Of a stretch of DNA of 37,899 bases, positions 5,972 through 37,899 are shown one piece after another (the stretch's first letter is position 1; every line of letters begins with the position of its first letter). The position numbers and the translations under genes are program-made. Under the pieces are notes generated by a model that searched no databases, was not told the DNA's origin, and saw only the letters and a program-made list of their open reading frames with translations. Source of the stretch: a virus (Duplodnaviria > Caudoviricetes); IMG/VR virus record IMGVR_UViG_3300005259_000075, positions 1 to 37,899 of that record. The stretch is one strand, 5' to 3'.

Positions 5972-6343
5972 ATGCTGATCAGCGGATATATGGCGTGGCG
6001 GATATACCGCCTGGCGTTTGAATCGCTGCAACGGCTGACCGTGCGGCAGGTGGTGATCCGGCGCGGGAAAAAGGTTAGCCTCTACGATGATGCCGAAGCG
6101 GCGGCGGAGCGGGCGCGGATCGATGCGCCGAAACCGTTGCTTTGTCCGCGCTGTCATGGTCTGAACGATACGAAATTTTCCTACTGTGACAGCTGCCGCA
6201 GGGAATTACAGGCATTGCGGGCGAAACCCAAAAATCGGGCAATGACGCACGCCGAAATCGTGGCCTGGAACGCGGCGCATCCCTGGGATTTGAGCCGCGA
6301 GGGGCTGGCGGCGACGCTGAAAAAGAGGGGGAACGAAGGATAG
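5972..6343 (+). CDS. Hypothetical zinc-ribbon protein
   Basis: CPRC...CDSC; GAGGGG SD before ATG 5972. Confidence 0.6.
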   Translation: MLISGYMAWRIYRLAFESLQRLTVRQVVIRRGKKVSLYDDAEAAAERARIDAPKPLLCPRCHGLNDTKFSYCDSCRRELQALRAKPKNRAMTHAEIVAWNAAHPWDLSREGLAATLKKRGNEG

Positions 6344-6396
6344 CATTTAGCATTTAGAAGATAGCATTTAGCATTTAGAAGATAGCATTTAGCATA
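6341..6396 (+). repeat. TAGCATT heptamer array 1 (8 units, 21-bp higher-order period)
   Basis: (TAGCATT TAGCATT TAGAAGA)x2 TAGCATT TAGCATA. Confidence 0.95.
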
Positions 6397-6425
6397 AAAA
6401 AACAAACAAAGAAACAGGGGAAATT

Positions 6426-7145
6426 ATGAAAGTACAGATCAATTTTTGGAATGGAAAAACGGCACTGGAGTATGAGGCGGAGAATATTGCCAAGGCGCTT
6501 GAGATGGCAGTAAAAGACGGAGCCGACCTCACCAGAGCCAACCTCTACGGAGCCGACCTCACCAGAGCCAACCTCACCAGAGCCAACCTCTACGGAGCCG
6601 ACCTCACCAGAGCCAACCTCACCAGAGCCGACCTCTACGGAGCCGACCTCACCAGAGCCAACCTCTACGGAGCCAACCTCTACGGAGCCGACCTCACCAG
6701 AGCCAACCTCACCAGAGCCAACCTCACCGGAGCCGACCTCACCAGAACCGACCTCACCAGAGCCAACCTCACCAGAGCCAACCTCACCGGAGCCGACCTC
6801 ACCAGAGCCAACCTCACCGGAGCCGACCTCACCGGAGCCGACCTCACCAGAGCCAACCTCACCGGAGCCGACCTAGAAGTTAACGGCAAAAAGCTCTGGG
6901 CAACACGTCCAATCCTACAACTCGGGCCATGCGGCGGTGTTAATCGTACCACGATTGTTTATCTGTTTGATGACAAATCTGATCCTGAAATCCGTTGCGG
7001 ATGTTTTACTGGTGATCTGGCACAGTTCCGCGCGAAAATCAAAGAAACCCACGGTGGTGCTTTTCACGAGCGGGAATACAACGCGATGGCGGATCATATC
7101 GAAGCGATCTACAAAATCCAGCAGTCAGAAGTAAACGCGGAATAA
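6426..7145 (+). CDS. Pentapeptide-repeat protein with C-terminal CGCFxG domain
   Basis: 24 consecutive A(D/N)Lxx-type repeats; C-terminal IRCGCFTGDLAQFRAKIKETH. Confidence 0.92.
   Translation: MKVQINFWNGKTALEYEAENIAKALEMAVKDGADLTRANLYGADLTRANLTRANLYGADLTRANLTRADLYGADLTRANLYGANLYGADLTRANLTRANLTGADLTRTDLTRANLTRANLTGADLTRANLTGADLTGADLTRANLTGADLEVNGKKLWATRPILQLGPCGGVNRTTIVYLFDDKSDPEIRCGCFTGDLAQFRAKIKETHGGAFHEREYNAMADHIEAIYKIQQSEVNAE
6519..6874 (+). repeat. 15-bp coding tandem repeat, about 24 units
   Basis: (G/A)GAGCC(G/A)ACCTC(ACC/TAC) units with almost no synonymous variation. Confidence 0.95.
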
Positions 7146-7251
7146 AATTTATGTCGGAATATGGTTGTGGAAGACTGAACCGACACAAAACAAATAGGAA
7201 ACCCGATGACGCCCCGGAAAGACGGGGAATAATCAACAAAAGAGGCGAGAA

Positions 7252-7923
7252 ATGGAAACGATTAAGAAAATGATGGATGCGGCGATTGATCGGATGAACA
7301 CTTCCGGGGAACTGGAAAAGATGATCCAGAAGAAAATTACCGAATGCGTTGACAATGCAATCGGTAGTTATTTCGGATATAAGATGTCACAACAGATTGC
7401 CGAAGCGTTACAAGCGGCGTTGGTGTTTGATCCGAAACGGATCGGGTTTGAGCAGTTTACCGACAGCATTATCAAAACGGTTCAGTCACGGTTACAGGTA
7501 TTGACCGCCGAGCAGGTGCAGAAAATTGACGAGGTTATCAAGGCTCAACTCGAACAGCCGCCGGACGAAATCAAACTTTCCGATCTGATGAATCGTTTTC
7601 GCCATGATCGTCGCGATGATATCAAGGGGCTTTATACCCTGCATATCGAACCGGAAACATACGGCGACGGATACATGATACGGTTCGACACCAAAGCCGC
7701 CGCCGGGAAGTGGGAATGTGCCTATACGATTCGCGTTGACCGCGAGCAAAAGGTTTGGCTGGTGGAAATCGGCAACAAAAAAGGGGAAGATATTTTCCTG
7801 CGGCGACTCTGGGGCTTTGACATGTTGGTTTATCGGCTCTGGATGCACAAGTCAAAGCTGATTGTCGATACCCGCGATATTGATACATCATCGGAAGAAA
7901 ATGACGACGAAAACGAAGATTAA
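7252..7923 (+). CDS. Hypothetical phage protein
   Basis: 223-aa ORF with GAGG SD, co-oriented in the early operon. Confidence 0.8.
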   Translation: METIKKMMDAAIDRMNTSGELEKMIQKKITECVDNAIGSYFGYKMSQQIAEALQAALVFDPKRIGFEQFTDSIIKTVQSRLQVLTAEQVQKIDEVIKAQLEQPPDEIKLSDLMNRFRHDRRDDIKGLYTLHIEPETYGDGYMIRFDTKAAAGKWECAYTIRVDREQKVWLVEIGNKKGEDIFLRRLWGFDMLVYRLWMHKSKLIVDTRDIDTSSEENDDENED

Positions 7924-7935
7924 GCGAGGCGAGAA

Positions 7936-8673
7936 ATGATGGAAGAAAAGCAAGCGGCTCCGATTGATAAAATCAAAAAGCTGCTGGCATTGAGCCAGAG
8001 CAACAATGAAAATGAGGCGGCGGTAGCACTGGCGCAGGCAATGAAGCTGGCGGCGGCACATGGGCTGGAAATCAAGGATATTGAGGCCAGCGGAAGCGAA
8101 CAGATTGAACGCGAAGATATCGGCAAATTCAAGTCGTCAATTCCGCAATGGGAAAAGATTCTGGCTGCAAATCTGGCTCACGTCTTTGGTTGTCGGCTGA
8201 TCCATTCATACAGCCGGGTGTGGCTGACCGGACGCAGGGTAAGCAAGATGGTAGCGGTGGGCTTTGCCACGGATGTAAAGATTTTTACTTATGTCCACGC
8301 CTATCTGTTACAGACGTTGAAACGACTGACCAAAGAAAAACTTGCCCGGCATATGCACGGACGTTCCGCCAAAATTCAACGATCATTTTTGCTCGGCGGA
8401 ACCTGGGCGGTATTGGAAAATGCCGAAAAGGTTTTTCGGCGTGAAGCTACCCCTGAGGAAAATCAACTTTACGCACTGGTTTTAAAACGCGGCGGATTGG
8501 TTGATAAACATCTGGCGGGTATGCAGACGGCCAGAACAAAAAAAGTCGGTGATGTTGACGGTCTGGCCTTTGCCGCCGGATATGAATTTGGAAAAAGAAT
8601 TCCGCTCAATAAGGGTATTGAAGCGGCAGAAGCGGAAAAACAAGCGCTGAAAAGTACGGCGCTGCTGAGTTAA
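7936..8673 (+). CDS. DUF2786-type phage protein
   Basis: IDKIKKLLALSQSNNENEAAVALAQAMKLAAAHGL N-terminus; RSFLLG; AFAAGYEFGKRIPLN C-terminus. Confidence 0.85.
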   Translation: MMEEKQAAPIDKIKKLLALSQSNNENEAAVALAQAMKLAAAHGLEIKDIEASGSEQIEREDIGKFKSSIPQWEKILAANLAHVFGCRLIHSYSRVWLTGRRVSKMVAVGFATDVKIFTYVHAYLLQTLKRLTKEKLARHMHGRSAKIQRSFLLGGTWAVLENAEKVFRREATPEENQLYALVLKRGGLVDKHLAGMQTARTKKVGDVDGLAFAAGYEFGKRIPLNKGIEAAEAEKQALKSTALLS

Positions 8674-8685
8674 TGAGGCGAAATA

Positions 8686-8880
8686 ATGAAAATTATTGAG
8701 GTTACGGGCAATGGCGATACCGGGACAAAATACAGCGTTCCGGTGGAACAGATTGCCTATATCCGCGATCATGACGGGATTACGCCGACCACGATTCACT
8801 TGTTGCACGGTCAGCGGATTCAGACGCGGGAAACCGCCGGGATGATCCGGGCGCTGATGGCAAAAGCAGTTAGCATTTAG
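8686..8880 (+). CDS. Small protein resembling the FlbD/SwrD-like family
   Basis: VPVEQIAYI...TTIHLLHGQRIQTRET pattern. Confidence 0.5.
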   Translation: MKIIEVTGNGDTGTKYSVPVEQIAYIRDHDGITPTTIHLLHGQRIQTRETAGMIRALMAKAVSI

Positions 8881-8947
8881 CAGATAGCATTTAGCATTTA
8901 GGAAAGTTTACAGTTCACAGTTCACAGTTCACAGTTCACAGTTCACG
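8871..8947 (+). repeat. TAGCATT heptamer array 2 fused to a GTTCACA heptamer array
   Basis: 5 TAG-initiated heptamers (8871..8905), then 6 GTTCACA-type heptamers (8906..8947). Confidence 0.95.
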
Positions 8948-8971
8948 GCAAAAAACAGAGGATAGCGCGAA

Positions 8972-9283
8972 ATGAAACGGAAATGGGCAATCTATACGCG
9001 GAAAACGTTAACGGTGATGTTCGGGCCGGTCGGGCAGCGTCCGGCAGCGGCAAGCCGTCTGGCGGCGCTTAACGGCGGCGGCGCGAAACAGTACGCGCTG
9101 GCGGTGGCAAAAGTCGATGAGGCGGGCAAGATGGTGCATTGTCATCCGGCCCGAATGGCGGCGCGGATTATGCCGCTGGTGACGGGACGGCGCAAAAAAA
9201 GCAAGCCCGTGATTCGGGTTAAAAAGCCGGAGCCGAAGCCGTCCAGGGAGTGCGTAAGGCTGTTGCAGATGGAGTTGTTTTGA
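8972..9283 (+). CDS. Hypothetical basic protein
   Basis: 103-aa ORF between two heptamer arrays; ends in QMELF, resembling a beta-clamp-binding motif. Confidence 0.6.
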   Translation: MKRKWAIYTRKTLTVMFGPVGQRPAAASRLAALNGGGAKQYALAVAKVDEAGKMVHCHPARMAARIMPLVTGRRKKSKPVIRVKKPEPKPSRECVRLLQMELF

Positions 9284-9285
9284 GG

Positions 9286-9323
9286 GAGCATTTAGCATTT
9301 AGCAGATAGCATTTAGCATTTAG
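9286..9323 (+). repeat. TAGCATT heptamer array 3
   Basis: GAGCATT TAGCATT TAGCAGA TAGCATT TAGCATT TAG. Confidence 0.95.
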
Positions 9324-9335
9324 AGAGGCGCAAAT

Positions 9336-9914
9336 ATGGCAATCTGGAACAACGGCAAAATGACCGTAATTGCGGCAAGCCGGGAACGGGCGGCGGCGGA
9401 ATATCTGCGCCGGACCGGCAGCGAGAGCCAGGCCGGGGAATGGTCGGAACTCGCCACCTGGCCCGCGTATCCGATCAGATTAAAAGGGAAGCTCAAGGAG
9501 GACTTAAAAAAGGCGGCGGCGATTTTTGATCTGTCGGAGTCGGAAATCATCGGCAAGGCCGTCCGCAAAGCCAGACGGATAAAACCGGCTGTAGTCGTTG
9601 ATAAAAACAATCAGGACGACCACAAAAGCGATTACGGCGATCCGGTAAAAGTTTATGATTTCGACCCGGAGCCGGAAAACGATCCGGCGCTTTTCCGGGC
9701 TTATCTGGCCTGGTATCTGGCACAGTATGATCTGACCGCGCCGCCCAGCCGCGCGAGATTCGACCGGATCAGGGAGGAGGCGTATCACAGCGAATGCACC
9801 ATGAAAACCGCCGTTGCCAGCGCGGTAATCCAGCAGGAAGAGCTGGCGGTATCGTTTGAGCAACGGATAACCAGATGGCAGGGATGGAAAGAAAAAGAGG
9901 AAAACAAAGAATGA
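9336..9914 (+). CDS. Mosaic gene A: RHH-like N-half + shared core + C1 half
   Basis: YPIRLKGKLKEDLKKAAAIFDLSESEIIGKAVR is RHH-like; the last ~70 aa nearly match the end of 13253..13654. Confidence 0.8.
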   Translation: MAIWNNGKMTVIAASRERAAAEYLRRTGSESQAGEWSELATWPAYPIRLKGKLKEDLKKAAAIFDLSESEIIGKAVRKARRIKPAVVVDKNNQDDHKSDYGDPVKVYDFDPEPENDPALFRAYLAWYLAQYDLTAPPSRARFDRIREEAYHSECTMKTAVASAVIQQEELAVSFEQRITRWQGWKEKEENKE

Positions 9915-9917
9915 AAA
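9703..9917 (+). repeat. Direct repeat C1, copy 1 (partner 13443..13657, offset 3740)
   Basis: Manual alignment: 14 mismatches in 215 bp, no indels. Confidence 0.95.
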
Positions 9918-10516
9918 ACATCAATGAATTTGAACAGGTGAGTGAAACGGAAGCTCGGGAAATTGTGCGGCGGACAATGCGCAATGCACATTTGTATCCC
10001 GAATATATCGAGCGGTATATCGCCAAGGATTTTCTGTGCGACGCGGCAACCGGAATCAAAAAAATAGAGGAAGAAAGTAAGGAACTGCTCGAGGCGCTGA
10101 AACGCTTGCAAAAAGAGATGACAACTTGCATGACCGGCTATCAACAGGCAGTAAGAATTCCCGGAGATATTGCCAATTCGGTATTATTTCAGTGCTTTCG
10201 CGATGCAATGGAACAAGCCACAAATGCCATTGCCAAGACCGCAAGGGAAACAAACGTAAGCAACACAACAAAACCGAGCAATAATATTGTGATTTATAAT
10301 CAACGTGGCCATATGATGGCCATGTGTGGTATAAACAAAGAAGGCAAAGGGGAATTGCTTTATATCGCGCCTGATATGCTGGTTTGGCAATTGAGAAAAT
10401 ATTGCGGCGAAATCCTTGGAGGAGATACTTGCCGCTGTATGTCTTACCGAACAGAAAACGGCCATTGCACATCAAAAGAACACTGCAAAATCTATCAGGC
10501 GCTTAAGAATAATTGA
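9911..10516 (+). CDS. Hypothetical phage protein
   Basis: ATGA overlap with gene A; ELLEALK motif; Cys-rich C-terminus. Confidence 0.65.
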   Translation: MKNINEFEQVSETEAREIVRRTMRNAHLYPEYIERYIAKDFLCDAATGIKKIEEESKELLEALKRLQKEMTTCMTGYQQAVRIPGDIANSVLFQCFRDAMEQATNAIAKTARETNVSNTTKPSNNIVIYNQRGHMMAMCGINKEGKGELLYIAPDMLVWQLRKYCGEILGGDTCRCMSYRTENGHCTSKEHCKIYQALKNN

Positions 10517-10528
10517 GGAAAATAAAGA

Positions 10529-11377
10529 ATGAGCAAGGCAAAATATTGGACAAAAGCCTGGAATCCGGTCGTTGGATGTCGCAAGGCGAGCGAGGGGTGC
10601 CAGAATTGCTACGCGGAGCGCATAACGGAGCGTTTCGGCATTAACGGCGGCGATTTTACGCCGAGGCAAATGAGCAACAGCAACCCGCCGAAATCAGGCG
10701 TGGTTTTTGTCGGCAACATGACCGATCTGTTTGGCGATTGGAATAGCCGGGAACAGATTCGGGACTGGCTGGCGCAGTTGTCGCGATCGGCAATTAACAT
10801 GGTGCTCACTAAACGCGCCGAACGCATGGCCGAAGTAATTTATCCGGGCGCGGAACTGCCCCATGTCTGGTGGGGCGTTACTGCCGAGAATCAGACGCGA
10901 GCGGATGAGCGGATACCTCATCTGTTATCGGTTAAACCATTGGAATCGAGTTTCAATTCAAATGATTTGCGAATTAACCGCTGGCTGTCATTAGAGCCGC
11001 TTTTGGGGTCGCTTGATATCATTCGCTATATTGGTTTTAATGCCTATAAGTGTGCTTGCGGATGGCACGAAACCGAGCGTAATTTGATCCTTTCCAATCC
11101 CAAAAACAACGGATTGTGGGGCTGGTGTCAATGCCGCATATGTGGGGAACGCGCTTTTCAGTCCAGCTCTGCGTCTTGGGTGGTCGTCGGGGCCGAATCC
11201 GGTCCCAATCGCCGCCCCTGCCAAATAGAATGGGTGCGTTCGATTGTTGCACAGTGCCAGGCCGCCGGGGTGCCGGTATTTGTCAAGCAACTCGACCTCG
11301 ACGGCAAACTCGTAACCGATATTAATCAATTCCCGGAAGATTTACGCATCCGGGAAATTCCGTGGAGTAAACAATGA
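10529..11377 (+). CDS. DUF5131 / phage Gp37Gp68 family (radical-SAM-like Cys motif)
   Basis: WNPVVGCRKASEGCQNCYA, FVGNMTDLF, LTKRAER, SLEPLLG, WVVVGAESGP, GVPVFVKQL. Confidence 0.92.
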   Translation: MSKAKYWTKAWNPVVGCRKASEGCQNCYAERITERFGINGGDFTPRQMSNSNPPKSGVVFVGNMTDLFGDWNSREQIRDWLAQLSRSAINMVLTKRAERMAEVIYPGAELPHVWWGVTAENQTRADERIPHLLSVKPLESSFNSNDLRINRWLSLEPLLGSLDIIRYIGFNAYKCACGWHETERNLILSNPKNNGLWGWCQCRICGERAFQSSSASWVVVGAESGPNRRPCQIEWVRSIVAQCQAAGVPVFVKQLDLDGKLVTDINQFPEDLRIREIPWSKQ

Positions 11378-11604
11378 TCACTAAGCACGTAATTAAAGAT
11401 TCAACTTGGGATTGCGGTATATCAAAGTTCAATCAAATAAAAAACATGCTGCAACACGATGGTTTTGCGATAGTTGATTACACCATTGATTACAATCACG
11501 GGGCAACGTTGCGGCACGAATTCGCGGCAACAATTACGAGCCGTCCGGCCAAAGTGATAGGCATTGAACAAGTGATGATCAGAAAAACGGAGGAAAAACA
11601 ATGA
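11374..11604 (+). CDS. Hypothetical protein
   Basis: ATGA-coupled on both sides. Confidence 0.65.
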   Translation: MITKHVIKDSTWDCGISKFNQIKNMLQHDGFAIVDYTIDYNHGATLRHEFAATITSRPAKVIGIEQVMIRKTEEKQ

Positions 11605-11936
11605 ACGGTAAAATCGGCTGTGCCCTAGTGGCGGGATGTTTTTTTGCTATTGCTATTGGCCTTGACATTCTTGTGGTTACACATACCGAATATCTCAGCG
11701 CTACAGTGACGGATAAACAGGTAGTGGTTAGCGATAACAACAGCAAATATCTGATCTTCACCACAAATGAGGTTTTTGAGAACTGTGACAGCTATTTCTT
11801 TGCAAAATTCGACAGCTCTGATTTTGAAAACCGCATTGAGAAAAACAAAACCTACCGTTTCAGGGTATCCGGTTATCGCATCCCGTTTTTTAGCATGTAT
11901 CGGAATATCATTGAAGTAAAAGAGGAGAAACCATGA
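11601..11936 (+). CDS. Membrane-anchored protein (DUF1523-like)
   Basis: N-terminal TM helix; VFENCDSYFFAKFDSSD...GYRIPFFSMYRNII. Confidence 0.65.
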   Translation: MNGKIGCALVAGCFFAIAIGLDILVVTHTEYLSATVTDKQVVVSDNNSKYLIFTTNEVFENCDSYFFAKFDSSDFENRIEKNKTYRFRVSGYRIPFFSMYRNIIEVKEEKP

Positions 11937-12157
11937 AAGCTAAAATCAGGTTTGCAAAAATCAGGAGTACCCAGGCGGATCATGACAACAAGCTGGCAAT
12001 TGAGTTGATGAACGATCAGGGGAACATGATTGCGGACATTACTATCAGCACCGAGGATTTTGCCCGGATCGTGTTTACCGGCGGCGAAATTCCGGCGGAA
12101 ATCATTCGCGGCTGGTCGGCTAATCTGGCCTGGTATCTGGCGCAGTATGATCTGACC
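11923..12157 (+). repeat. Direct repeat N2, copy 1 (partner 13243..13477, offset 1320)
   Basis: Manual alignment: 8 mismatches in 235 bp; includes the RBS and start codon. Confidence 0.95.
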
Positions 12158-12259
12158 CAAAAACCGCAAACAGTACCCTATAGCGAGGAAACCAAGCGCG
12201 AAATAAAAAAATATGCGGCGGCAGAATTAGAAGCAAAACAAAGAGAGGCGAGGAATTAA
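11933..12259 (+). CDS. Mosaic gene B: N2 half + shared core + unique C2 half
   Basis: First 75 aa nearly identical to 13253..13654. Confidence 0.8.
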   Translation: MKAKIRFAKIRSTQADHDNKLAIELMNDQGNMIADITISTEDFARIVFTGGEIPAEIIRGWSANLAWYLAQYDLTQKPQTVPYSEETKREIKKYAAAELEAKQREARN

Positions 12260-12263
12260 AGCA

Positions 12264-13205
12264 ATGATTGACCAACAAACATTAACCGAGCGCACATATT
12301 TACTGGGGCTTAGGCAAAAAATGCCGCTTGATTTAAAAATCCAATATACTGTAAATCGTATCAAGTGGTTTTTGCAACAACAAACCATGTCCTCATCAAT
12401 TATGTTTTCAGGTGGCATTGATAGTATGGTATTGTTGCATATTGCACGAAAATATGTTGATCCCAACATCCCCGCGGTGTTTTCCAATACTGGAGTGGAG
12501 TTTCCAGAAATAGTAAAATTTGTTAAAACAACACCCAATGTAAAAATTTTAAAGCCCCAAATGTCATATCGTGACGTGTTACTAAAGCACGGATATCCGG
12601 TTGTATCAAAACAAGTCGCTCGTTTTTTATGGGACATCCGCAATGCCAGCGACCGCAACAAAAATACTGTAAAATTGCGCATGGAGGGAGTTAACAGCAA
12701 AGGTGAAATTTCCAACACCATGAAATTGCCCCAAAAATGGCACTATCTCATCAGAGCTCCATTTAAAATATCGCACAGGTGCTGTGACTGTTTAAAAAAG
12801 CAGGTTATGGCCAGAATAACAATGTTACCAATAATTGGCACAATGGCCAGTGATAGCCAAAATCGACGGCGCGATTATCTAATTAACGGGTGCAATATCT
12901 ATGACGGTCAACATGTTCAATGCCGACCGCTATCATTTTGGACGACTAGCAATGTTTGGGATTATATCCACTCAGAAAATATTCCGTATTGTGAAATTTA
13001 CGATGCGGGATATATGCACACGGGATGTGTTTCTTGTGGTTTCGGGGTTCATCTGGAAAAAGGCGAAAACAGATTTCAAATGCTTTATAGGACACATCCA
13101 TCGCTATGGGATGCACATATTAATCACTATGGATGGGGAAATGTTTTGAGCTATATGAATATTCCCTTTATTCCTGGTCCCCAGCAAAAGTTGTTTAATT
13201 TTTAA
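12264..13205 (+). CDS. PAPS-reductase family protein (phage type)
   Basis: PP-loop FSGGIDS, NTGVEFPE, GYPVVSK, ISHRCCDCLKK, PLSFWT, TGCVSCGFG; visibly AT-richer than its flanks. Confidence 0.9.
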   Translation: MIDQQTLTERTYLLGLRQKMPLDLKIQYTVNRIKWFLQQQTMSSSIMFSGGIDSMVLLHIARKYVDPNIPAVFSNTGVEFPEIVKFVKTTPNVKILKPQMSYRDVLLKHGYPVVSKQVARFLWDIRNASDRNKNTVKLRMEGVNSKGEISNTMKLPQKWHYLIRAPFKISHRCCDCLKKQVMARITMLPIIGTMASDSQNRRRDYLINGCNIYDGQHVQCRPLSFWTTSNVWDYIHSENIPYCEIYDAGYMHTGCVSCGFGVHLEKGENRFQMLYRTHPSLWDAHINHYGWGNVLSYMNIPFIPGPQQKLFNF

Positions 13206-13242
13206 TAATCAAGCTGAAAAATGAGCAGACAAACACAAATAA

Positions 13243-13657
13243 AGGAGAAACCATGAAAGCAAAAATCAGGTTTGCAAAAATCAGGAGCACCCACGCGGAT
13301 CATGACAACAAGCTGGCAATTGAGTTGATGAACGATCAGGGAAACATGATTGCGGACATTGCTATCAGCACCGAGGATTTTGCCCGGATCGTGTTTACCG
13401 GCGGCGAAATTCCGGCGGAAATCATTCGCGGCTGGTCGGCGAATCTGGCCTGGTATCTGGCGCAGCACGATCTGACCGCGCCGACCAGCCGCGCAAAATT
13501 CGACCGGATCAGGGAGGAGGCGTATCACAGCGAATGCGCCATGAAAACCGCTGTTGCCAGCGCGGCAATCCAGCAGGAAGAGCTGGCGGTGTCGCTTGAG
13601 CAACGGATAACCAGATGGCAGGGATGGAAAGAAAAAGAGGAAAATAAAATATGAAAA
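13243..13657 (+). repeat. Composite second copy: N2' (13243..13477) overlapping C1' (13443..13657) in the 35-bp core
   Basis: Left part matches 11923..12157, right part matches 9703..9917. Confidence 0.95.
13253..13654 (+). CDS. Mosaic gene C: N-half of gene B + core + C-half of gene A
   Basis: Direct protein comparison with genes A and B. Confidence 0.85.
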   Translation: MKAKIRFAKIRSTHADHDNKLAIELMNDQGNMIADIAISTEDFARIVFTGGEIPAEIIRGWSANLAWYLAQHDLTAPTSRAKFDRIREEAYHSECAMKTAVASAAIQQEELAVSLEQRITRWQGWKEKEENKI

Positions 13658-14043
13658 TATGTCCAGAATGCGGTAGTCATGATGTAATCATTTTTACTTG
13701 TGATTATGATTTTTGTCGAAAATGCGGTCGTAATTTTCCGGCTGTTAAGGAAATTCCCGATGGCATTGACCGCATCGCCGCCGAGCGCAAGCGCCAGATT
13801 GAAAAGGAGGGGTACACGGCGGAACACGATAAACAACATTCGGCAAATGCTCTGATAGAGGCAGCATTGTGTTATGTTGGAATAGTAATCCGACCGTTGC
13901 CGGACAGCGAAGTTCCGCTAATCTGGCCATGGGATAACGAATTTTGGAAGCCATCGCCCAATCCGATCAGAAATCTGGAGAAAGCCGGAGCGCTGATCGC
14001 GGCAGCGATTGACCGGATTCAGATGGAGGATAAACAGTCATGA
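13651..14043 (+). CDS. Conserved phage hypothetical protein with N-terminal zinc ribbon
   Basis: CPEC...CRKC; IAAERKRQIEKEGYTAEHD...WPW...RNLEKAGALIAAAIDR. Confidence 0.8.
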   Translation: MKICPECGSHDVIIFTCDYDFCRKCGRNFPAVKEIPDGIDRIAAERKRQIEKEGYTAEHDKQHSANALIEAALCYVGIVIRPLPDSEVPLIWPWDNEFWKPSPNPIRNLEKAGALIAAAIDRIQMEDKQS

Positions 14044-14678
14044 TCAAAGAAATTCCGATGATTTTTAACAGCGCTATGGTCCGGGCAATTCTGAGCGGAC
14101 AAAAGACCCAGACGCGGCGCATCGCGAAACCGTTTCCGCCCGCCGGACAATCGACTATTGACGAGGGATTTAAACCAACCGTGTTTATCAACAACGCTTG
14201 CAATAAAAAATGGCAGTGGCAAAAAGGCGCATGGTTTTCCGGTCACATTCACAATCTTCCCTGCCAGCCCGGCGACCGCATTTATGTGCGGGAAGCTTGG
14301 TCAAATTGGTATTATGACGATGCCGCAAAAGCGCAAAAATATTGGTATCGTGCCGATTATGCCGATGACCATGATCCGGATGGATGGGATAACTCGCCGT
14401 CAACCAAAGATCGCTGGTATCCCTCCATCCACATGCCCAAAACGGCGGCGCGGATCTGGTTGGAGGTGGTCAGCGTTAGTGCACAACGAATACAGGAAAT
14501 TACGCCGGAAGATGCTTGGAATGAAGGGTTTTCCTGTTCATGTTTACATCCCATCCCTCAATGCGCCGGTAATGTTTCTGCCTTCGCTGCCACTTGGGAA
14601 AATACCTATCACAACTGGTTAGCCAATCCGTGGGTATGGCGGATTGAGTTCAAAAAATTTAAACTGATGGAATCATAA
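14040..14678 (+). CDS. ASCH/PUA-like phage protein
   Basis: PMIFNSAMVRAILSGQKTQTRR, GDRIYVRE, WYPSIHMP, NPWVWRIEF. Confidence 0.8.
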   Translation: MIKEIPMIFNSAMVRAILSGQKTQTRRIAKPFPPAGQSTIDEGFKPTVFINNACNKKWQWQKGAWFSGHIHNLPCQPGDRIYVREAWSNWYYDDAAKAQKYWYRADYADDHDPDGWDNSPSTKDRWYPSIHMPKTAARIWLEVVSVSAQRIQEITPEDAWNEGFSCSCLHPIPQCAGNVSAFAATWENTYHNWLANPWVWRIEFKKFKLMES

Positions 14679-16597: not shown

Positions 16598-16686
16598 TGC
16601 GCTGGTTAATCATCATTGAAATTATTCGCGCCTGGCGGCGAAGATATCGCCGGAAACAAGGAGGAAAACGCCATGCCCGCCCGTGA
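16597..16686 (+). CDS. Putative 29-aa hydrophobic/basic peptide
   Basis: TAATG overlap; MRWLIIIEIIRAWRRRYRRKQGGKRHARP. Confidence 0.4.
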   Translation: MRWLIIIEIIRAWRRRYRRKQGGKRHARP

Positions 16687-17404
16687 TCCGTTGAGTGACG
16701 AGCAGATTGTATCCATGCTCAAAAGTAAGGCGTTCGGGACCGGCTGCCGGTTGCGCAATCAAGCGATGTTTCTTGCTCAACTGGCGTTCGGCGTCAGGAT
16801 CGCGGAACTGTTGCGACTGCTGCGCGGCGAGGTGCTGGACCGCAACGGGGAACTGCGCGAACGAGTGACGTTTACCAAAACCAAAAACGGGAGATCGCGC
16901 ACGGTTGATTTTGTCCATCGGCTGGGGCGCGAATACATGTTGCGCTGGCTGCAATACTCCGAGCGGTTCGGTTACATGCTGGATATCAACCACGTGTTTC
17001 CGGGGCGGGTGATGGGTAAAAGTTTGAGCTCTCGGCAGTTTAACAACGTGCTTTACGCTGCCGCCGCCGAGATCGGTTTTACTGGTTGGTGCAGTTCGCA
17101 CAGTTGCCGCAAGACCTGGGCGATTGGCACATATCAACACTACCTGAAACGTTACCGAATGGGCGAGAATATCGACCCGCTTTTGCAGTTGAAAGAGGCG
17201 GGCGGATGGGAGACGATGGACGCGGCCAGCAAATATATCCGGTCGATGCTGGTGGATTGGCGCGAGAGTCAGGCGAGTTTATATCCGGGATTGGAAACAG
17301 CGATGGGTGAAACGGATTTTGAGGAGGAAAACGAGAAAAATAAAACTTCCGAAAATTGTAAAAGCGGAAATCGGGAGTATTTCAGCGTAAAAGATTACGC
17401 GTAA
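16673..17404 (+). CDS. Second tyrosine recombinase, catalytic domain only
   Basis: AAGGAGG SD; RNQAMF...GVRIAELL, KTKNG, HSCRKTWA, GGW...KYI. Confidence 0.88.
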   Translation: MPARDPLSDEQIVSMLKSKAFGTGCRLRNQAMFLAQLAFGVRIAELLRLLRGEVLDRNGELRERVTFTKTKNGRSRTVDFVHRLGREYMLRWLQYSERFGYMLDINHVFPGRVMGKSLSSRQFNNVLYAAAAEIGFTGWCSSHSCRKTWAIGTYQHYLKRYRMGENIDPLLQLKEAGGWETMDAASKYIRSMLVDWRESQASLYPGLETAMGETDFEEENEKNKTSENCKSGNREYFSVKDYA

Positions 17405-17432
17405 ATAACGTTTGTTATCGCACAAATCAAAG

Positions 17433-17460
17433 TTGCCATTTTTAAAATAGTGTTTATAAT
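17433..17460 (+). promoter_or_regulatory. Conserved late-module promoter, copy 1
   Basis: TTGCCA-TTTTTAAAATAGTGTT-TATAAT. Confidence 0.75.
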
Positions 17461-18426: not shown

Positions 18427-18804
18427 ATGGAGCGCAAAGTTTTTCGATATCATCGCCAGGCGGCGCAAAAACAATACGTGCCGCCGGAACTTTTAACTAA
18501 GCCGGAGGTCAAGGAAACGGCGCAATATCAGCGAGCGTCTAAACTGCGGTCATCCGACGCCTGGAAGAAACTGCGGGCGGCGGTCTTGAGTCGTTACCCG
18601 GTCTGTTGCGCCTGCGGCAGCGCGGCAGCGGTCGAGGTCCATCATCGACAACCCGCCTCCCGCCGCCCGGAGCTATTTTACACTCCCGCGAATCTCGCCC
18701 CCCTGTGCTCCGAATGCCATAACGCGATCCATTCCGCCGAGGCGCGGCGCATTTCCGCCGATCTGTTTATTCCCGCCGGTTTTATCGTGGAGATTACGCG
18801 CTGA
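18427..18804 (+). CDS. HNH endonuclease (packaging-associated)
   Basis: WKKLRAAVLSRYPVCCAC...EVHH...NLAPLCSECHNAIH. Confidence 0.92.
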   Translation: MERKVFRYHRQAAQKQYVPPELLTKPEVKETAQYQRASKLRSSDAWKKLRAAVLSRYPVCCACGSAAAVEVHHRQPASRRPELFYTPANLAPLCSECHNAIHSAEARRISADLFIPAGFIVEITR

Positions 18805-19772
18805 TGGTGAAGATTCCAAAAAAATGGTATGAACCTGTTGCCGGATTTGACCCCTGGGCGTGTCCCGGCGATGCTAAATTCGACCTTAATGTTGCCCGGC
18901 AAGTGACCGCCTTTTTTCCTGAGTACCTGACTTTTTACAAAGGTGAGTGGGACGGCAAACCATTTGAGCTTGAACCGTGGCAAGAGCTGCTGATCGGCCA
19001 TCTTTTCGCCTGGAAAAACCCGGACGGCACCCGCCGTTTTCGCGAAATTTTTTTGTATGTCCCGCGCAAAAACGGCAAAACCCAACTCGAAGCCGGGATC
19101 ATGATTATCTGTTGCTATTTCGACGGCGAAGCGGTCCCCGAAGGTTATTTGTTGGCGACCGACCGCAACCAGGCCTCTATTGCTTATGATTTTCTGAAAG
19201 CCTCCATCGACCGCAACGACTATCTGAGCCGGATTTCCACCGCGCATAACTCGCTGAAATCCATCGAAATCGACGGTAATTCCGGCGTTATCCGCATCCT
19301 GTCCGGCGAAAACAAGGGCAAACATGGTTACATGCCGCATTGTTACGGTATCGACGAATTGCACGAACAGACCAACCCCTATTTGATTGATGCCATGGAA
19401 ACGGGCGTAGGGCCGCGCAAATCGCCGCTTGGTATCTACACGTCAACCGCCGACGAATTCGGCGACGAGCGCCCTTGCAACGTAAAATTAGCCTATGCCA
19501 AAAATGTTCGCGACGGCGTTGTCCTCGATCCGACTTTTTTCCCGGCCGTCTGGGAGACGATCGAAGATAAAGACGATTGGACCAGCCCGGACACCTGGCG
19601 CAAGGCCAACCCCAATTTTTTTATCAACGGTTTGCAGTTTTATCAAAGCCAATATCTCAAGGCGTCCGTCGATCCGGTCAAAGAGATCGCGTTTAAACGT
19701 TTTTACCTCAATATGCAGACCAAAAAACAAGCCAAATGGCTGGATATGACCCATTGGAAGGCGTGTAAATGA
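18804..19772 (+). CDS. terL: Terminase large subunit, ATPase part
   Basis: LEPWQ Q-motif, Walker A VPRKNGKT, Walker B GIDELH, WRKANP. Confidence 0.92.
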   Translation: MVKIPKKWYEPVAGFDPWACPGDAKFDLNVARQVTAFFPEYLTFYKGEWDGKPFELEPWQELLIGHLFAWKNPDGTRRFREIFLYVPRKNGKTQLEAGIMIICCYFDGEAVPEGYLLATDRNQASIAYDFLKASIDRNDYLSRISTAHNSLKSIEIDGNSGVIRILSGENKGKHGYMPHCYGIDELHEQTNPYLIDAMETGVGPRKSPLGIYTSTADEFGDERPCNVKLAYAKNVRDGVVLDPTFFPAVWETIEDKDDWTSPDTWRKANPNFFINGLQFYQSQYLKASVDPVKEIAFKRFYLNMQTKKQAKWLDMTHWKACK

Positions 19773-20524
19773 GCACAAACGATGCAAAAAACAGCGAAAC
19801 TTCCCCCATAATCGCCGCCCCCCGGCCCATTGTGACGCCGGAAATGTTGCTCGGACAGCGCTGTTTCGGCGGCCTCGACCTCTCCAGCGTCGGCGATATC
19901 ACCGCGTTCGACCTCTATTTTCCCGATTTTTACGCCCTTTTGTGCTGGTTTTGGGTGCCCCAGGAGACCGCCGCCCGCCGCAAGGAATACCAGATATGGG
20001 AAAAACAGGGACATATCGAGATTTCCCAGGGCCGCACGATTGATTATGACCACATCCGGCGGCGGATTTCCGGCTGGTATCTCGATTCCGGCGTTGTCAA
20101 ACATGACCCCGCTTGCCTCAGCGATCTGTACGACATCAAGGCTATCGGTTATGACCCCTATAACGCCCCGCAAATCTGCCCCAAACTGGCCGACGACGAC
20201 GGCCTCAATATGATCGAGTTCCGGCAGGGCTTTCTGTCGATGAACGCCGCCTCGAAAGAGTTCGAGCGCCTGGTCAACGCGGAACTGCTGCACCACTTTA
20301 ATAATCCTGTCCTTACCTGGATGGCGGCAAACTGCGAGGTGGTGGAAAAGGACGGCAACAAAAAACCGGTCAAGCCTTCCGCTACATCCCCACTCAAAAT
20401 TGACGGTATCGTCTGCGCTGTGATGGCGGTCGGCCTCAGCATGACGCAGCCCGGCGACGATGCCAAATCCGGCAGCCTAAACCGCCCGGAAATTCGCAGC
20501 GTTATTGATGAGTTTTATTCGTAA
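19769..20524 (+). CDS. terL: Terminase large subunit, nuclease part (separate ORF)
   Basis: GGLDLSSVGDITA, IGYDPYNA, EFRQG, NPVLTW, KIDG. Confidence 0.9.
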   Translation: MSTNDAKNSETSPIIAAPRPIVTPEMLLGQRCFGGLDLSSVGDITAFDLYFPDFYALLCWFWVPQETAARRKEYQIWEKQGHIEISQGRTIDYDHIRRRISGWYLDSGVVKHDPACLSDLYDIKAIGYDPYNAPQICPKLADDDGLNMIEFRQGFLSMNAASKEFERLVNAELLHHFNNPVLTWMAANCEVVEKDGNKKPVKPSATSPLKIDGIVCAVMAVGLSMTQPGDDAKSGSLNRPEIRSVIDEFYS

Positions 20525-20567: not shown

Positions 20568-20610
20568 AAAAATACTTGCCGATTTTTTTTCTGATCCCCT
20601 CTGAAATCTT

Positions 20611-20638
20611 TTGCCATTTTTTATATAGTGTTTACTTT
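20611..20638 (+). promoter_or_regulatory. Conserved late-module promoter, copy 2
   Basis: TTGCCA-TTTTTTATATAGTGTT-TACTTT. Confidence 0.7.
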
Positions 20639-31579: not shown

Positions 31580-31582
31580 CTT

Positions 31583-31610
31583 TTGCCATTTTTTATATAG
31601 TGTTTATAAT
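31583..31610 (+). promoter_or_regulatory. Conserved late-module promoter, copy 3
   Basis: TTGCCA-TTTTTTATATAGTGTT-TATAAT. Confidence 0.75.
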
Positions 31611-37523: not shown

Positions 37524-37611
37524 TGGCGGAGGGAGTGGGATTCGAACCCACGGGAGCCGTAGCCCCGGCGGTTTTCAAGACCGCTGCCTTAAACCACTCG
37601 ACCATCCCTCC
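37524..37611 (-). tRNA. tRNA-Ser(TGA), integration target
   Basis: GGAGGGA acceptor stem, GCGGT-CTTGAAA-ACCGC anticodon arm, long variable arm, GGTTCGAATCC T-arm, encoded CCA. Confidence 0.97.
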
Positions 37612-37621
37612 GGGAACAATC

Positions 37622-37654
37622 GCATTGGAAGGCCTTAATATGACCTTCCAATGC
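37622..37654. other. 11-bp inverted repeat between htpG and the tRNA
   Basis: GCATTGGAAGG...CCTTCCAATGC. Confidence 0.6.
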
Positions 37655-37674
37655 AATATTTCAAGCACAAGGAA

Positions 37675-37899
37675 CTACTTTGCTGCTTCCTTTTCCAAGC
37701 CGATCACCATCAGCTCGGCAATATGGCGTGTGAACTTCAGGGGATCGGCGATAGTTCCACCTTCCGTCAGAACCGCCTGATCCCACAGCATCGCGGCATA
37801 ATCCGCCAGTTTGGGATTGGCGGAATCGCGATCATAGACACCCTGCATGGCTTTGACCAGGGGATGATCAGCATTAAGCTCCAGAATCCGTTTGGATTT
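37675..37899 (-). CDS. htpG: Host chaperone HtpG (Hsp90), 3' end only
   Basis: Translated by hand: KSKRILELNADHPLVKAM...LWDQAVLTEGGTIADPLKFTRHIAELM...stop. Confidence 0.9.
   Translation of the reverse strand, partial: KSKRILELNADHPLVKAMQGVYDRDSANPKLADYAAMLWDQAVLTEGGTIADPLKFTRHIAELMVIGLEKEAAK

What the first reader, a model, noticed from the sequence alone, without database searches (positions are those of the whole stretch)
9336..13657. Combinatorial split-gene cassette system: three genes share a 35-bp core and swap halves around nested cargo
Seen: ATCTGGCCTGGTATCTGGCRCAGYAYGATCTGACC (LAWYLAQ[Y/H]DLT) occurs in frame at 9703, 12123 and 13443. Gene A = N1(RHH-like)+core+C1, gene B = N2+core+C2, gene C = N2+core+C1. 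Homology switches at the core, and the copies differ by 8/235 and 14/215 nt, which argues against an assembly duplicate. Recombination between C1 copies would remove 3740 bp, between N2 copies 1320 bp (PAPS-reductase-like gene), and between cores 1 and 2 2420 bp, creating a fourth gene N1+C2. Every outcome leaves an intact ORF with downstream coupling. The core holds three ATCTG(G/A)C sub-repeats. Inference: an intragenic recombination hub that loads or unloads accessory cargo while reshuffling protein halves. I do not recognise it as a described system.
Basis: partly seen in the sequence, partly recalled or inferred. Interest (0 to 1): 0.85.

Follow-up and report, generated by a model that had tools for sequence, protein, structure and literature searches.

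The report
Regulator-gene end as phage cassette joint
Three genes of an uncultured temperate phage share a 35-base stretch that encodes the end of a predicted DNA-binding domain, and distantly related phages carry different gene tails and neighbouring genes just after the same stretch, so it is likely an ordinary recombination joint for accessory genes rather than a dedicated gene-shuffling machine.

Summary
In detail: three in-frame cores, N2 twice (8/235 differences) and C1 twice (14/215), in the early region of a temperate siphophage.

Gene A (N1+core+C1) is a natural whole protein: an outside homologue matches it across both sides of the core (51%). The core encodes the end of a predicted tandem ribbon-helix-helix domain. 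It is conserved as peptide, not DNA (18-20/33 nt in relatives). It has no dyad symmetry, and its sub-repeats fit codon usage.

In seven Mu-like phage loci the gene is single-copy, with two tails switching 9 nt after the core and four different neighbouring cargo sets. One tail sits on two different gene bodies, which implies a crossover in or beside the core. The one record searchable whole (78% complete) has no tyrosine recombinase.

Best reading: the gene end is a boundary sequence. One non-homologous N2|core join plus homologous crossovers between related phages likely stacked two cassettes in tandem. Genes B and C lack the DNA-binding domain. No close relative or read set was found, so present-day recombination is untested. 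Precedents are mycobacteriophage Island3 genes 67/68 and T4 PeSLs.

The parts
9336..9914 (+). Gene A: whole member of a small phage protein family, predicted tandem ribbon-helix-helix (RHH) regulator (domain about 9459-9737) plus helical tail C1
   Evidence: P0004 51% over residues 43-186; model; fold matches
9698..9737 (+). Core 1 (35 nt from 9703; 40 nt of homology to core 2); encodes the end of the last predicted helix and the following loop
9738..9917 (+). C1 copy 1, including the ribosome-binding site and overlapping start of the next gene
9897..9913 (+). 17-nt RBS/start linker, repeated at 10515-10531 (16 of 17 identical); the two copies bracket the gene at 9911-10516
   Evidence: 3 matches with up to 2 mismatches, 0.03 expected
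9911..11936 (+). Cargo X: unknown 201 aa (9911-10516), DUF5131 (10529-11377), unknown 76 aa (11374-11604), phrog_301 'secreted protein' (11601-11936)
   Evidence: GC 0.467 vs 0.521 for the window
10515..10531 (+). Second copy of the 17-nt RBS/start linker
11923..12122 (+). N2 copy 1 with its ribosome-binding site; homology to copy 2 begins at the RBS
11933..12259 (+). Gene B = N2 + core + tail C2; chimaera without the RHH domain
12118..12157 (+). Core 2
12158..12259 (+). Tail C2; weakly resembles tails of the gene A family
   Evidence: 5 of 2376 background peptides, but 190 of 3000 own shuffles, reach its score
12264..13205 (+). Cargo Y: PAPS-reductase-domain gene, GC 0.392
13243..13442 (+). 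N2 copy 2 with RBS
13253..13654 (+). Gene C = N2 + core + C1; chimaera with the same N2|core junction as gene B
13443..13477 (+). Core 3
13478..13657 (+). C1 copy 2 with RBS and overlapping start of the gene at 13651

Best explanation
The core encodes the end of a predicted ribbon-helix-helix domain in a phage gene (gene A) and likely serves as a boundary sequence at which ordinary homologous recombination between related phages exchanges the gene's tail together with the accessory genes behind it. Shown: the repeats, their phase and divergence; gene A as a whole member of a family; tails and cargo that differ just after the core among relatives. Inferred: a single non-homologous join once fused N2 (a separate small early gene with its own RBS) to the core, since B and C share the same junction. 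That made a unit core-tail-cargo-N2 with homology at both ends. Allelic exchange then replaced one tail-plus-cargo by another, and an unequal crossover in the 35-40 nt core between two related phages stacked units X and Y in tandem. The tail switch likely persists because it falls at the domain boundary. B and C are likely N2 proteins with a passenger tail, not new regulators. Untested: present-day deletion or circle formation, expression, and which recombinase acts.
For:: 4 outside homologues among 6 hits; P0004 aligns through N1, core and C1 (75/147); the core residues are a conserved block of the family and tails vary beyond it; the helix at model 76-88 ends the domain; three RHH-type chains align to model residues 1-92/96; the core is residues 83-93; 7 loci, 2 tails, 4 cargo sets. 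L009 equals L006 (other tail) at 22 of 22 informative body sites but differs from L010 (same tail) at 15 of 22; L010 equals L005 (other tail) at 20 of 22; 98 of 276 site pairs fail the four-gamete test; alleles in those loci differ by 9-27 of 195 nt, similar to or above the 3.4% and 6.5% between window copies; dN/dS 0.16 (p 0.014) and 0.27 (p 0.027); other short direct repeats bracket single genes in the same early region. PMC3945230 (passage) gives 30 bp as the minimum for Red-beta recombination.
Against: The seven loci belong to a Mu-like phage group only 33-36% identical to gene A, so they show the family's behaviour, not this phage's. They are metagenome or viral contigs and could contain assembly chimaeras. 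Their tail switch is 9 nt beyond the window's. No close relative, no empty or single-cassette form and no N2 homologue was found. C2 as a native family tail is only suggestive. The fold match is weak (best RHH-type Z 5.7, below an unrelated top hit at Z 6.7; model pTM 0.42). No single-strand annealing protein was named among the window ORFs scanned.
Confidence: 0.65

Rival explanations
1. One-off history without any crossover in the core: an illegitimate N2|core fusion, a tandem duplication of N2-core-C1, and an illegitimate replacement of C1 by C2 plus cargo Y that happened to land at the core's end.
For: No alternative pairing of these halves outside this record. C2 is not significantly family-like against its own shuffles (190 of 3000). 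C2 is as GC-poor as cargo Y (0.42 vs 0.39; C1 0.56).
Against: The two repeats differ in divergence (3.4% vs 6.5%) and both show purifying selection. C2 has the Lys-Pro start seen in 4 of 8 family tails, found in 16 of 2376 background peptides (noticed after the fact). Relatives show recombination in this interval.
Confidence: 0.17
2. A selected, reusable hub: general recombination at the core and halves continually loads and unloads cassettes as circles, and the chimaeric proteins have functions of their own.
For: The geometry gives in-frame products. Both repeated parts are under purifying selection. The same N2|core junction is present twice. PeSL repeats of T4-type phages do make mini-circles (PMC2839356 abstract).
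Against: The copies are not homogenised (8/235, 14/215). All 7 related loci have one copy. B and C lack the predicted DNA-binding domain. Selection may date from the native genes.
Confidence: 0.08
3. A site-specific system: the tyrosine recombinase at 16673-17404 recognises the core and its sub-repeats.
For: The gene matches PF00589 above the cut-off and XerC/D and invertase models weakly. It lies about 3 kb from the last core and is a second integrase-family gene in this phage.
Against: The best 11-nt dyad in the cores is 5-6 of 11, against a background mode of 6 in 330 windows. Core DNA is 18-20/33 identical in relatives, third positions 4-5/11. No PF00589 match in the record of L005 (78% complete). 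The three loci with distant relatives of the recombinase have no gene A relative in the DNA fetched.
Confidence: 0.05
4. Assembly chimaera of two co-occurring related phages joined through the repeats.
For: Single record (1 member, 1 contig for each of the three proteins); no reads could be laid.
Against: The longest identical runs between copies are 79, 49 and 19 nt, shorter than usual short reads (own knowledge). The copies carry distinct substitutions along their length, and reading frames and start-stop overlaps are intact at every junction.
Confidence: 0.05

Closest known systems
Mycobacteriophage Island3 genes 67/68 vs Brujita (PMC3029335, section 13 read whole)
   Same: Neighbouring phage genes share a stretch of coding sequence (60 bp, 18 C-terminal residues). 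Recombination between copies by general enzymes inserts or removes a gene; the authors liken it to short conserved boundary sequences.
   Different: There only 3' ends are shared and a recombinant relative is known. Here both a 5' part (N2) and a 3' part (C1) are doubled around a mid-gene core, giving three pairings in one genome, and no close relative is in hand.
Boundary-sequence / relaxed homologous recombination model of temperate phage mosaicism (PMC3029335, PMC2327257, PMC3945230; passages)
   Same: Short conserved flanks let related phages exchange modules; one junction may be illegitimate and the other homologous; 30 bp suffices for Red-beta.
   Different: The anchor here is a protein-conserved domain end inside a gene. 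No Red-beta-like gene was named in this phage.
PeSL cassettes of T4-type phages (PMC2839356, abstract and outline only)
   Same: Repeats among non-essential early genes mediate insertion, deletion and replacement, and can release mini-circles.
   Different: PeSLs are intergenic promoter/stem-loop elements. This region has no excess of promoter or terminator matches (6 vs 8.1 and 5 vs 7.4 expected), and the repeats are coding.
Lambdoid Ea22 (PMC7093339, passages)
   Same: An early accessory-region gene with a shared N-terminal part and exchangeable C-terminal parts.
   Different: Ea22 tails are whole domains proposed to alter function. The passages describe alleles in different phages, not a tandem array. 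No sequence relationship was found or tested.
F-plasmid TraY, a single-chain RHH dimer (bioRxiv 10.1101/2024.12.19.629322, passages)
   Same: The model of gene A has strand-helix-helix followed by strand-helix and aligns to relaxosome chain 9f0x_E (Z 5.7, rmsd 4.1, 76 aligned) and to permuted single-chain Arc (Z 5.2, rmsd 3.4, 70 aligned).
   Different: Weak scores and 11-12% identity. That chain E is TraY is my inference (it is also present in the entry lacking TraM). A shared fold shows no function.

Membership tests
Boundary-sequence-mediated cassette exchange | Short homology shared at module edges within or between phages | tested here: met
   40, 235 and 215 nt repeats; further 13-17 nt and heptamer repeats bracket single genes
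Boundary-sequence-mediated cassette exchange | Relatives carry different cargo behind the same anchor | tested here: met
   Met for the gene family in a Mu-like group: 4 cargo sets and 2 tails in 7 loci. No close relative of this phage was available.
Boundary-sequence-mediated cassette exchange | Crossover signal in or next to the anchor | tested here: met
   Tail B on two different bodies; for L009 the switch maps between 13 nt before and 42 nt after the core start. Within the window itself the 3 variable core positions are uninformative.
Boundary-sequence-mediated cassette exchange | Dependence on general recombination enzymes | not testable with these tools
   Needs a genetic assay
Tyrosine site-specific recombination (integron, shufflon or Xer-like) | Target site with inverted arms around a short spacer (established knowledge) | tested here: not met
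   5-6 of 11 complementary, background mode 6
Tyrosine site-specific recombination (integron, shufflon or Xer-like) | Site conserved as DNA among carriers | tested here: not met
   18-20/33 nt, third positions 4-5/11, no ATCTG in 7 of 7 loci; these carriers are distant
Tyrosine site-specific recombination (integron, shufflon or Xer-like) | Cognate recombinase travels with the site | tested here: inconclusive
   Present in the window; absent from the one searchable record, 78% complete; 3 of 4 handles not held
PeSL cassettes | Intergenic early promoter plus stem-loop | tested here: not met
   Repeats are coding; no excess of promoter or terminator matches in 8800-14200
PeSL cassettes | Mini-circles formed between repeats | not testable with these tools
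   No sequencing run was listed
Ribbon-helix-helix proteins (gene A) | Strand-helix-helix fold | tested here: inconclusive
   Model shows E4-7, H10-23, H27-41; no Foldseek match at E<=0.001; VIA Z 5.2-5.7 to RHH-type chains; Arc-like PHROG E 0.04; no Pfam hit
Ribbon-helix-helix proteins (gene A) | Sequence-specific DNA binding | not testable with these tools
   Needs a binding assay

The most novel reading that the evidence does not exclude
The N2|core fusion created a reusable docking site: a recombinase-free, expandable cassette array in which each unit (core, tail, cargo, N2) is excised as a circle and re-inserted in related prophages, every junction regenerating an expressed gene with translational coupling. 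That would be an integron-like array built wholly from coding sequence and maintained across this phage lineage.
Probability: 0.12. Interest if true: 0.65.

Novelty: new variant of a known kind. Interest (0 to 1): 0.3.

Why it matters
It is a clear snapshot of how phage accessory arrays can grow without a dedicated enzyme: the end of a conserved domain becomes the anchor, and one chance fusion turns a replaceable slot into a stackable unit. It also defines a small family of predicted single-chain RHH regulators with no Pfam, and only sub-threshold PHROG, matches, which sits at a variable cargo slot in two unrelated phage types. The mechanism itself is established, so the value is as an example. 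It would matter more if circles or multi-cassette arrays turned up in close relatives.

Tried and rejected
Searches for close relatives found none.
- Core pattern in viral contigs: 0 matches. An 18-nt part gave 1 match, L001, with unrelated flanks, treated as chance.
- Gene C: 0 of 4, 0 of 226 and 0 of 173 candidate stretches confirmed in viral, metagenome and genome contigs.
- Protein search: only the record's own proteins (3 of 15 candidates; 2 of 2 for N2).
- Core peptide pattern in genome contigs: 0 of 2.
- Heptamer linker in viral contigs: 0.
- tblastn of annotated phages: one weak hit (E 0.05) for gene C, none for N2, gene A or the recombinase.
- P0004 returned L012, a match to a short stretch between stop codons on top of another long reading frame; dropped as spurious.
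- Sequencing runs: none was listed; this is no evidence either way.

Structure and family searches that gave nothing usable: Atlas searches for N2 and gene C; the single-sequence model of gene C, low confidence (pLDDT 57.6) and not searched; PDB sequence search, only E 0.34-0.55 hits. N2 has only sub-threshold PHROG matches (E 0.055-0.27).

Rejected: sub-repeats as binding sites (codon usage, absent in relatives); dyad symmetry; a link to the 16673 recombinase; N1 and C1 as independent modules.

Literature searches returned no description of this family or array. The library lacks most subscription papers, and no supplementary files were consulted.
Full report
Context. The window is a whole virus record of 37,899 bases. 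It has an integrase at 1-1272, repressor-like and ParB-like genes, a rightward early region, O-like and DnaC-like replication genes, a second integrase-family gene at 16673-17404, and terminase, portal, protease, capsid and tail genes. A tRNA-Ser lies at 37524-37611, and the three proteins come from a contig of 51,828 bases. I read it as a temperate siphophage integrated at that tRNA (inference). The host is not identified.

Observation. Confirmed. The core lies at 9703, 12123 and 13443, far above chance. N2+core is 96.6% identical over 235 nt and core+C1 93.5% over 215 nt; cores 1 and 2 match over 40 nt. All cores are in the same codon phase, so in-frame products follow automatically from any crossover between homologous coding copies. 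The longest identical runs are 79, 49 and 19 nt, which makes a collapsed or chimaeric assembly unlikely. No reads were available to exclude it.

Gene A is not a hybrid. An exhaustive phmmer search gave 6 hits: two from this record and four outside. A profile search added one more among 2716 candidates. P0004 aligns with gene A through N1, core and C1 (75 of 147 identical). In the family alignment the core residues form a conserved block and tails vary after it. The model built on that alignment (mean pLDDT 68.9, pTM 0.42) shows strand-helix-helix, then strand-helix, then long helices. The core is model residues 83-93: the end of helix 76-88 and the next loop. Foldseek found nothing at E<=0.001. 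VIA aligned residues 1-92/96 to a relaxosome chain (Z 5.7), DndE (5.5) and permuted single-chain Arc (5.2), below an unrelated top hit at Z 6.7. I take the relaxosome chain to be TraY, which is a single-chain RHH dimer (passages); that DndE is RHH-like is recalled. So the RHH reading is a prediction, but the domain boundary coincides with the C1/C2 switch. The N2|core junction cuts the last helix, so B and C keep only 11 residues of the domain.

The core is not a DNA site. Against seven related loci it is 18-20 of 33 nt identical, 4-5 of 11 at third positions, with no ATCTG unit in any. Each sub-repeat is the end of a Tyr, Asn or Asp codon plus CTG, the main Leu codon (195 of 475). The best dyad is 5-6 of 11, at or below the background mode of 6 in 330 windows. 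The record holding L005 has no PF00589 match (78% complete; three other handles not held). Loci L002-L004, with 32-36% matches to the 16673 protein, have no gene A relative in the DNA fetched.

Yet the core region is a real exchange point in the family. The core peptide pattern found L005 (1 of 19 stretches) and L006-L011 (6 of 159). L005 has Mu-like genes (transposase-like and late genes, read), and the others share long DNA homology with it. Each has one copy of the gene and no repeat at the core. Five carry one tail and two another, switching 9 nt after the position where the window's core ends. The neighbouring cargo, on the opposite strand, falls into four sets: a four-helix-bundle gene (L005, L011), a 359-aa gene (L006-L008), a 315-aa gene (L009), and 166+203-aa genes (L010). 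L009 equals L006 at all 22 informative body sites yet has the other tail. It differs from L010, which shares its tail, at 15 of 22, while L010 equals L005 at 20 of 22. 98 of 276 biallelic site pairs fail the four-gamete test (counts read from the printed matrix). One tail has therefore moved between bodies by a crossover in or beside the core (inference). These are distant relatives and assembled contigs, so the evidence is about the family and not about this phage.

The window's copies look like alleles. Alleles in those loci differ by 9-27 of 195 nt; the window's copies differ by 3.4% and 6.5%. Both repeated parts show an excess of synonymous change (dN/dS 0.16, p 0.014; 0.27, p 0.027; few changes). 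C2 weakly resembles family tails: 5 of 2376 background peptides but 190 of 3000 of its own shuffles reach its summed score, so this is suggestive only. Other short repeats bracket single genes nearby: a 17-nt RBS/start linker around 9911-10516, a 13-nt one around 7252-7923, and heptamer tracts at 6341, 8871 and 9293. In L005 and L008-L010 several early genes, of at least two unrelated kinds, end in the same short peptide followed by the same RBS.

Mechanism. The simplest history needs one non-homologous join of N2 to the core (B and C share the junction), replacement of tail plus cargo between the core and N2 anchors, and an unequal crossover in the 35-40 nt core that stacked two units. All three steps are inferred. 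Red-beta needs about 30 bp (PMC3945230 passage), but no annealase was named in this phage, so host RecA or a co-infecting phage may act. Rivals: a one-off duplication with a second illegitimate join (0.17), a selected reusable hub (0.08), site-specific recombination (0.05), mis-assembly (0.05).

Against my reading: no close relative, no N2 homologue and no alternative pairing of these halves was found.

Comparison. Island3 genes 67/68 share a 60-bp coding end, and the authors explain the insertion by general recombination akin to boundary sequences (PMC3029335, section 13 read whole; introduction passage). PMC2327257 allows one homologous and one illegitimate junction (passages). PeSLs shuffle early cassettes and make mini-circles but are intergenic (PMC2839356, abstract). 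Ea22 has shared N-terminal and variable C-terminal parts (PMC7093339, passages). Five literature searches showed no description of this family or of a three-way coding array. Supplements were not consulted. Two earlier scan notes describe similar joints in other viruses; they are unchecked and not counted as support.

Verdict. A real and tidy structure that works like a boundary-sequence cassette joint, and a new variant in that both halves are doubled around a mid-gene core. It is not shown to be a dedicated system. Interest 0.3.

Noticed in passing
window 17431-17460, 20608-20634, 31580-31610: A 27-nt motif is identical at 20608 and 31580 and 81% alike at 17430. Two copies are 11-of-12 sigma-70 promoter matches with near-identical spacers: possibly co-regulated late promoters with a shared operator.
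   Followed up: partly
window 18804-19772 and 19769-20524: The terminase large subunit is in two ORFs with overlapping stop and start, matching consecutive parts of phrog_9; the second begins with about 23 unmatched residues. It looks like a natural split rather than a frameshift.
   Followed up: partly
window 6341-6400, 8865-8943, 9287-9324: Intergenic heptamer tracts (two different units) in three places bracket the gene at 8972-9283 and the block 6426-8880; no exact match in viral contigs.
   Followed up: partly
window 7242-7254 and 7926-7938: An identical 13-nt RBS/start sequence brackets the gene at 7252-7923.
   Followed up: partly
window 16673-17404: A second, short integrase-family gene sits just before the packaging genes; target unknown; only 32-36% relatives found.
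   Followed up: partly
window 9336-9458: Gene A has about 41 N-terminal residues that homologues P0004 and P0006 lack; possibly another fusion or a mis-called start.
   Followed up: no
L005:12367, L008:12552 and 13093, L009:2452 and 2847, L010:12842: Several early genes of the Mu-like group, helix-turn-helix-like and cysteine-containing by eye, end in the same short peptide followed by a shared RBS linker, and parts of these genes are duplicated.
   Followed up: partly
L005:10291-10884 (-), L006:10309-11388 (-), L009:357-1304 (-), L010:10291-11399 (-): A variable slot between the RHH-like gene and a repressor-like gene holds four different cargo sets; these could be defence or other moron genes; not scanned against PADLOC.
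   Followed up: partly
window 6426-7145: Pentapeptide-repeat protein with a 15-nt tandem array.
   Followed up: no
window 37524-37899: tRNA-Ser(TGA) on the minus strand, preceded by the end of an ORF that looks by recall like the HtpG chaperone; probably host DNA at the prophage edge.
   Followed up: no
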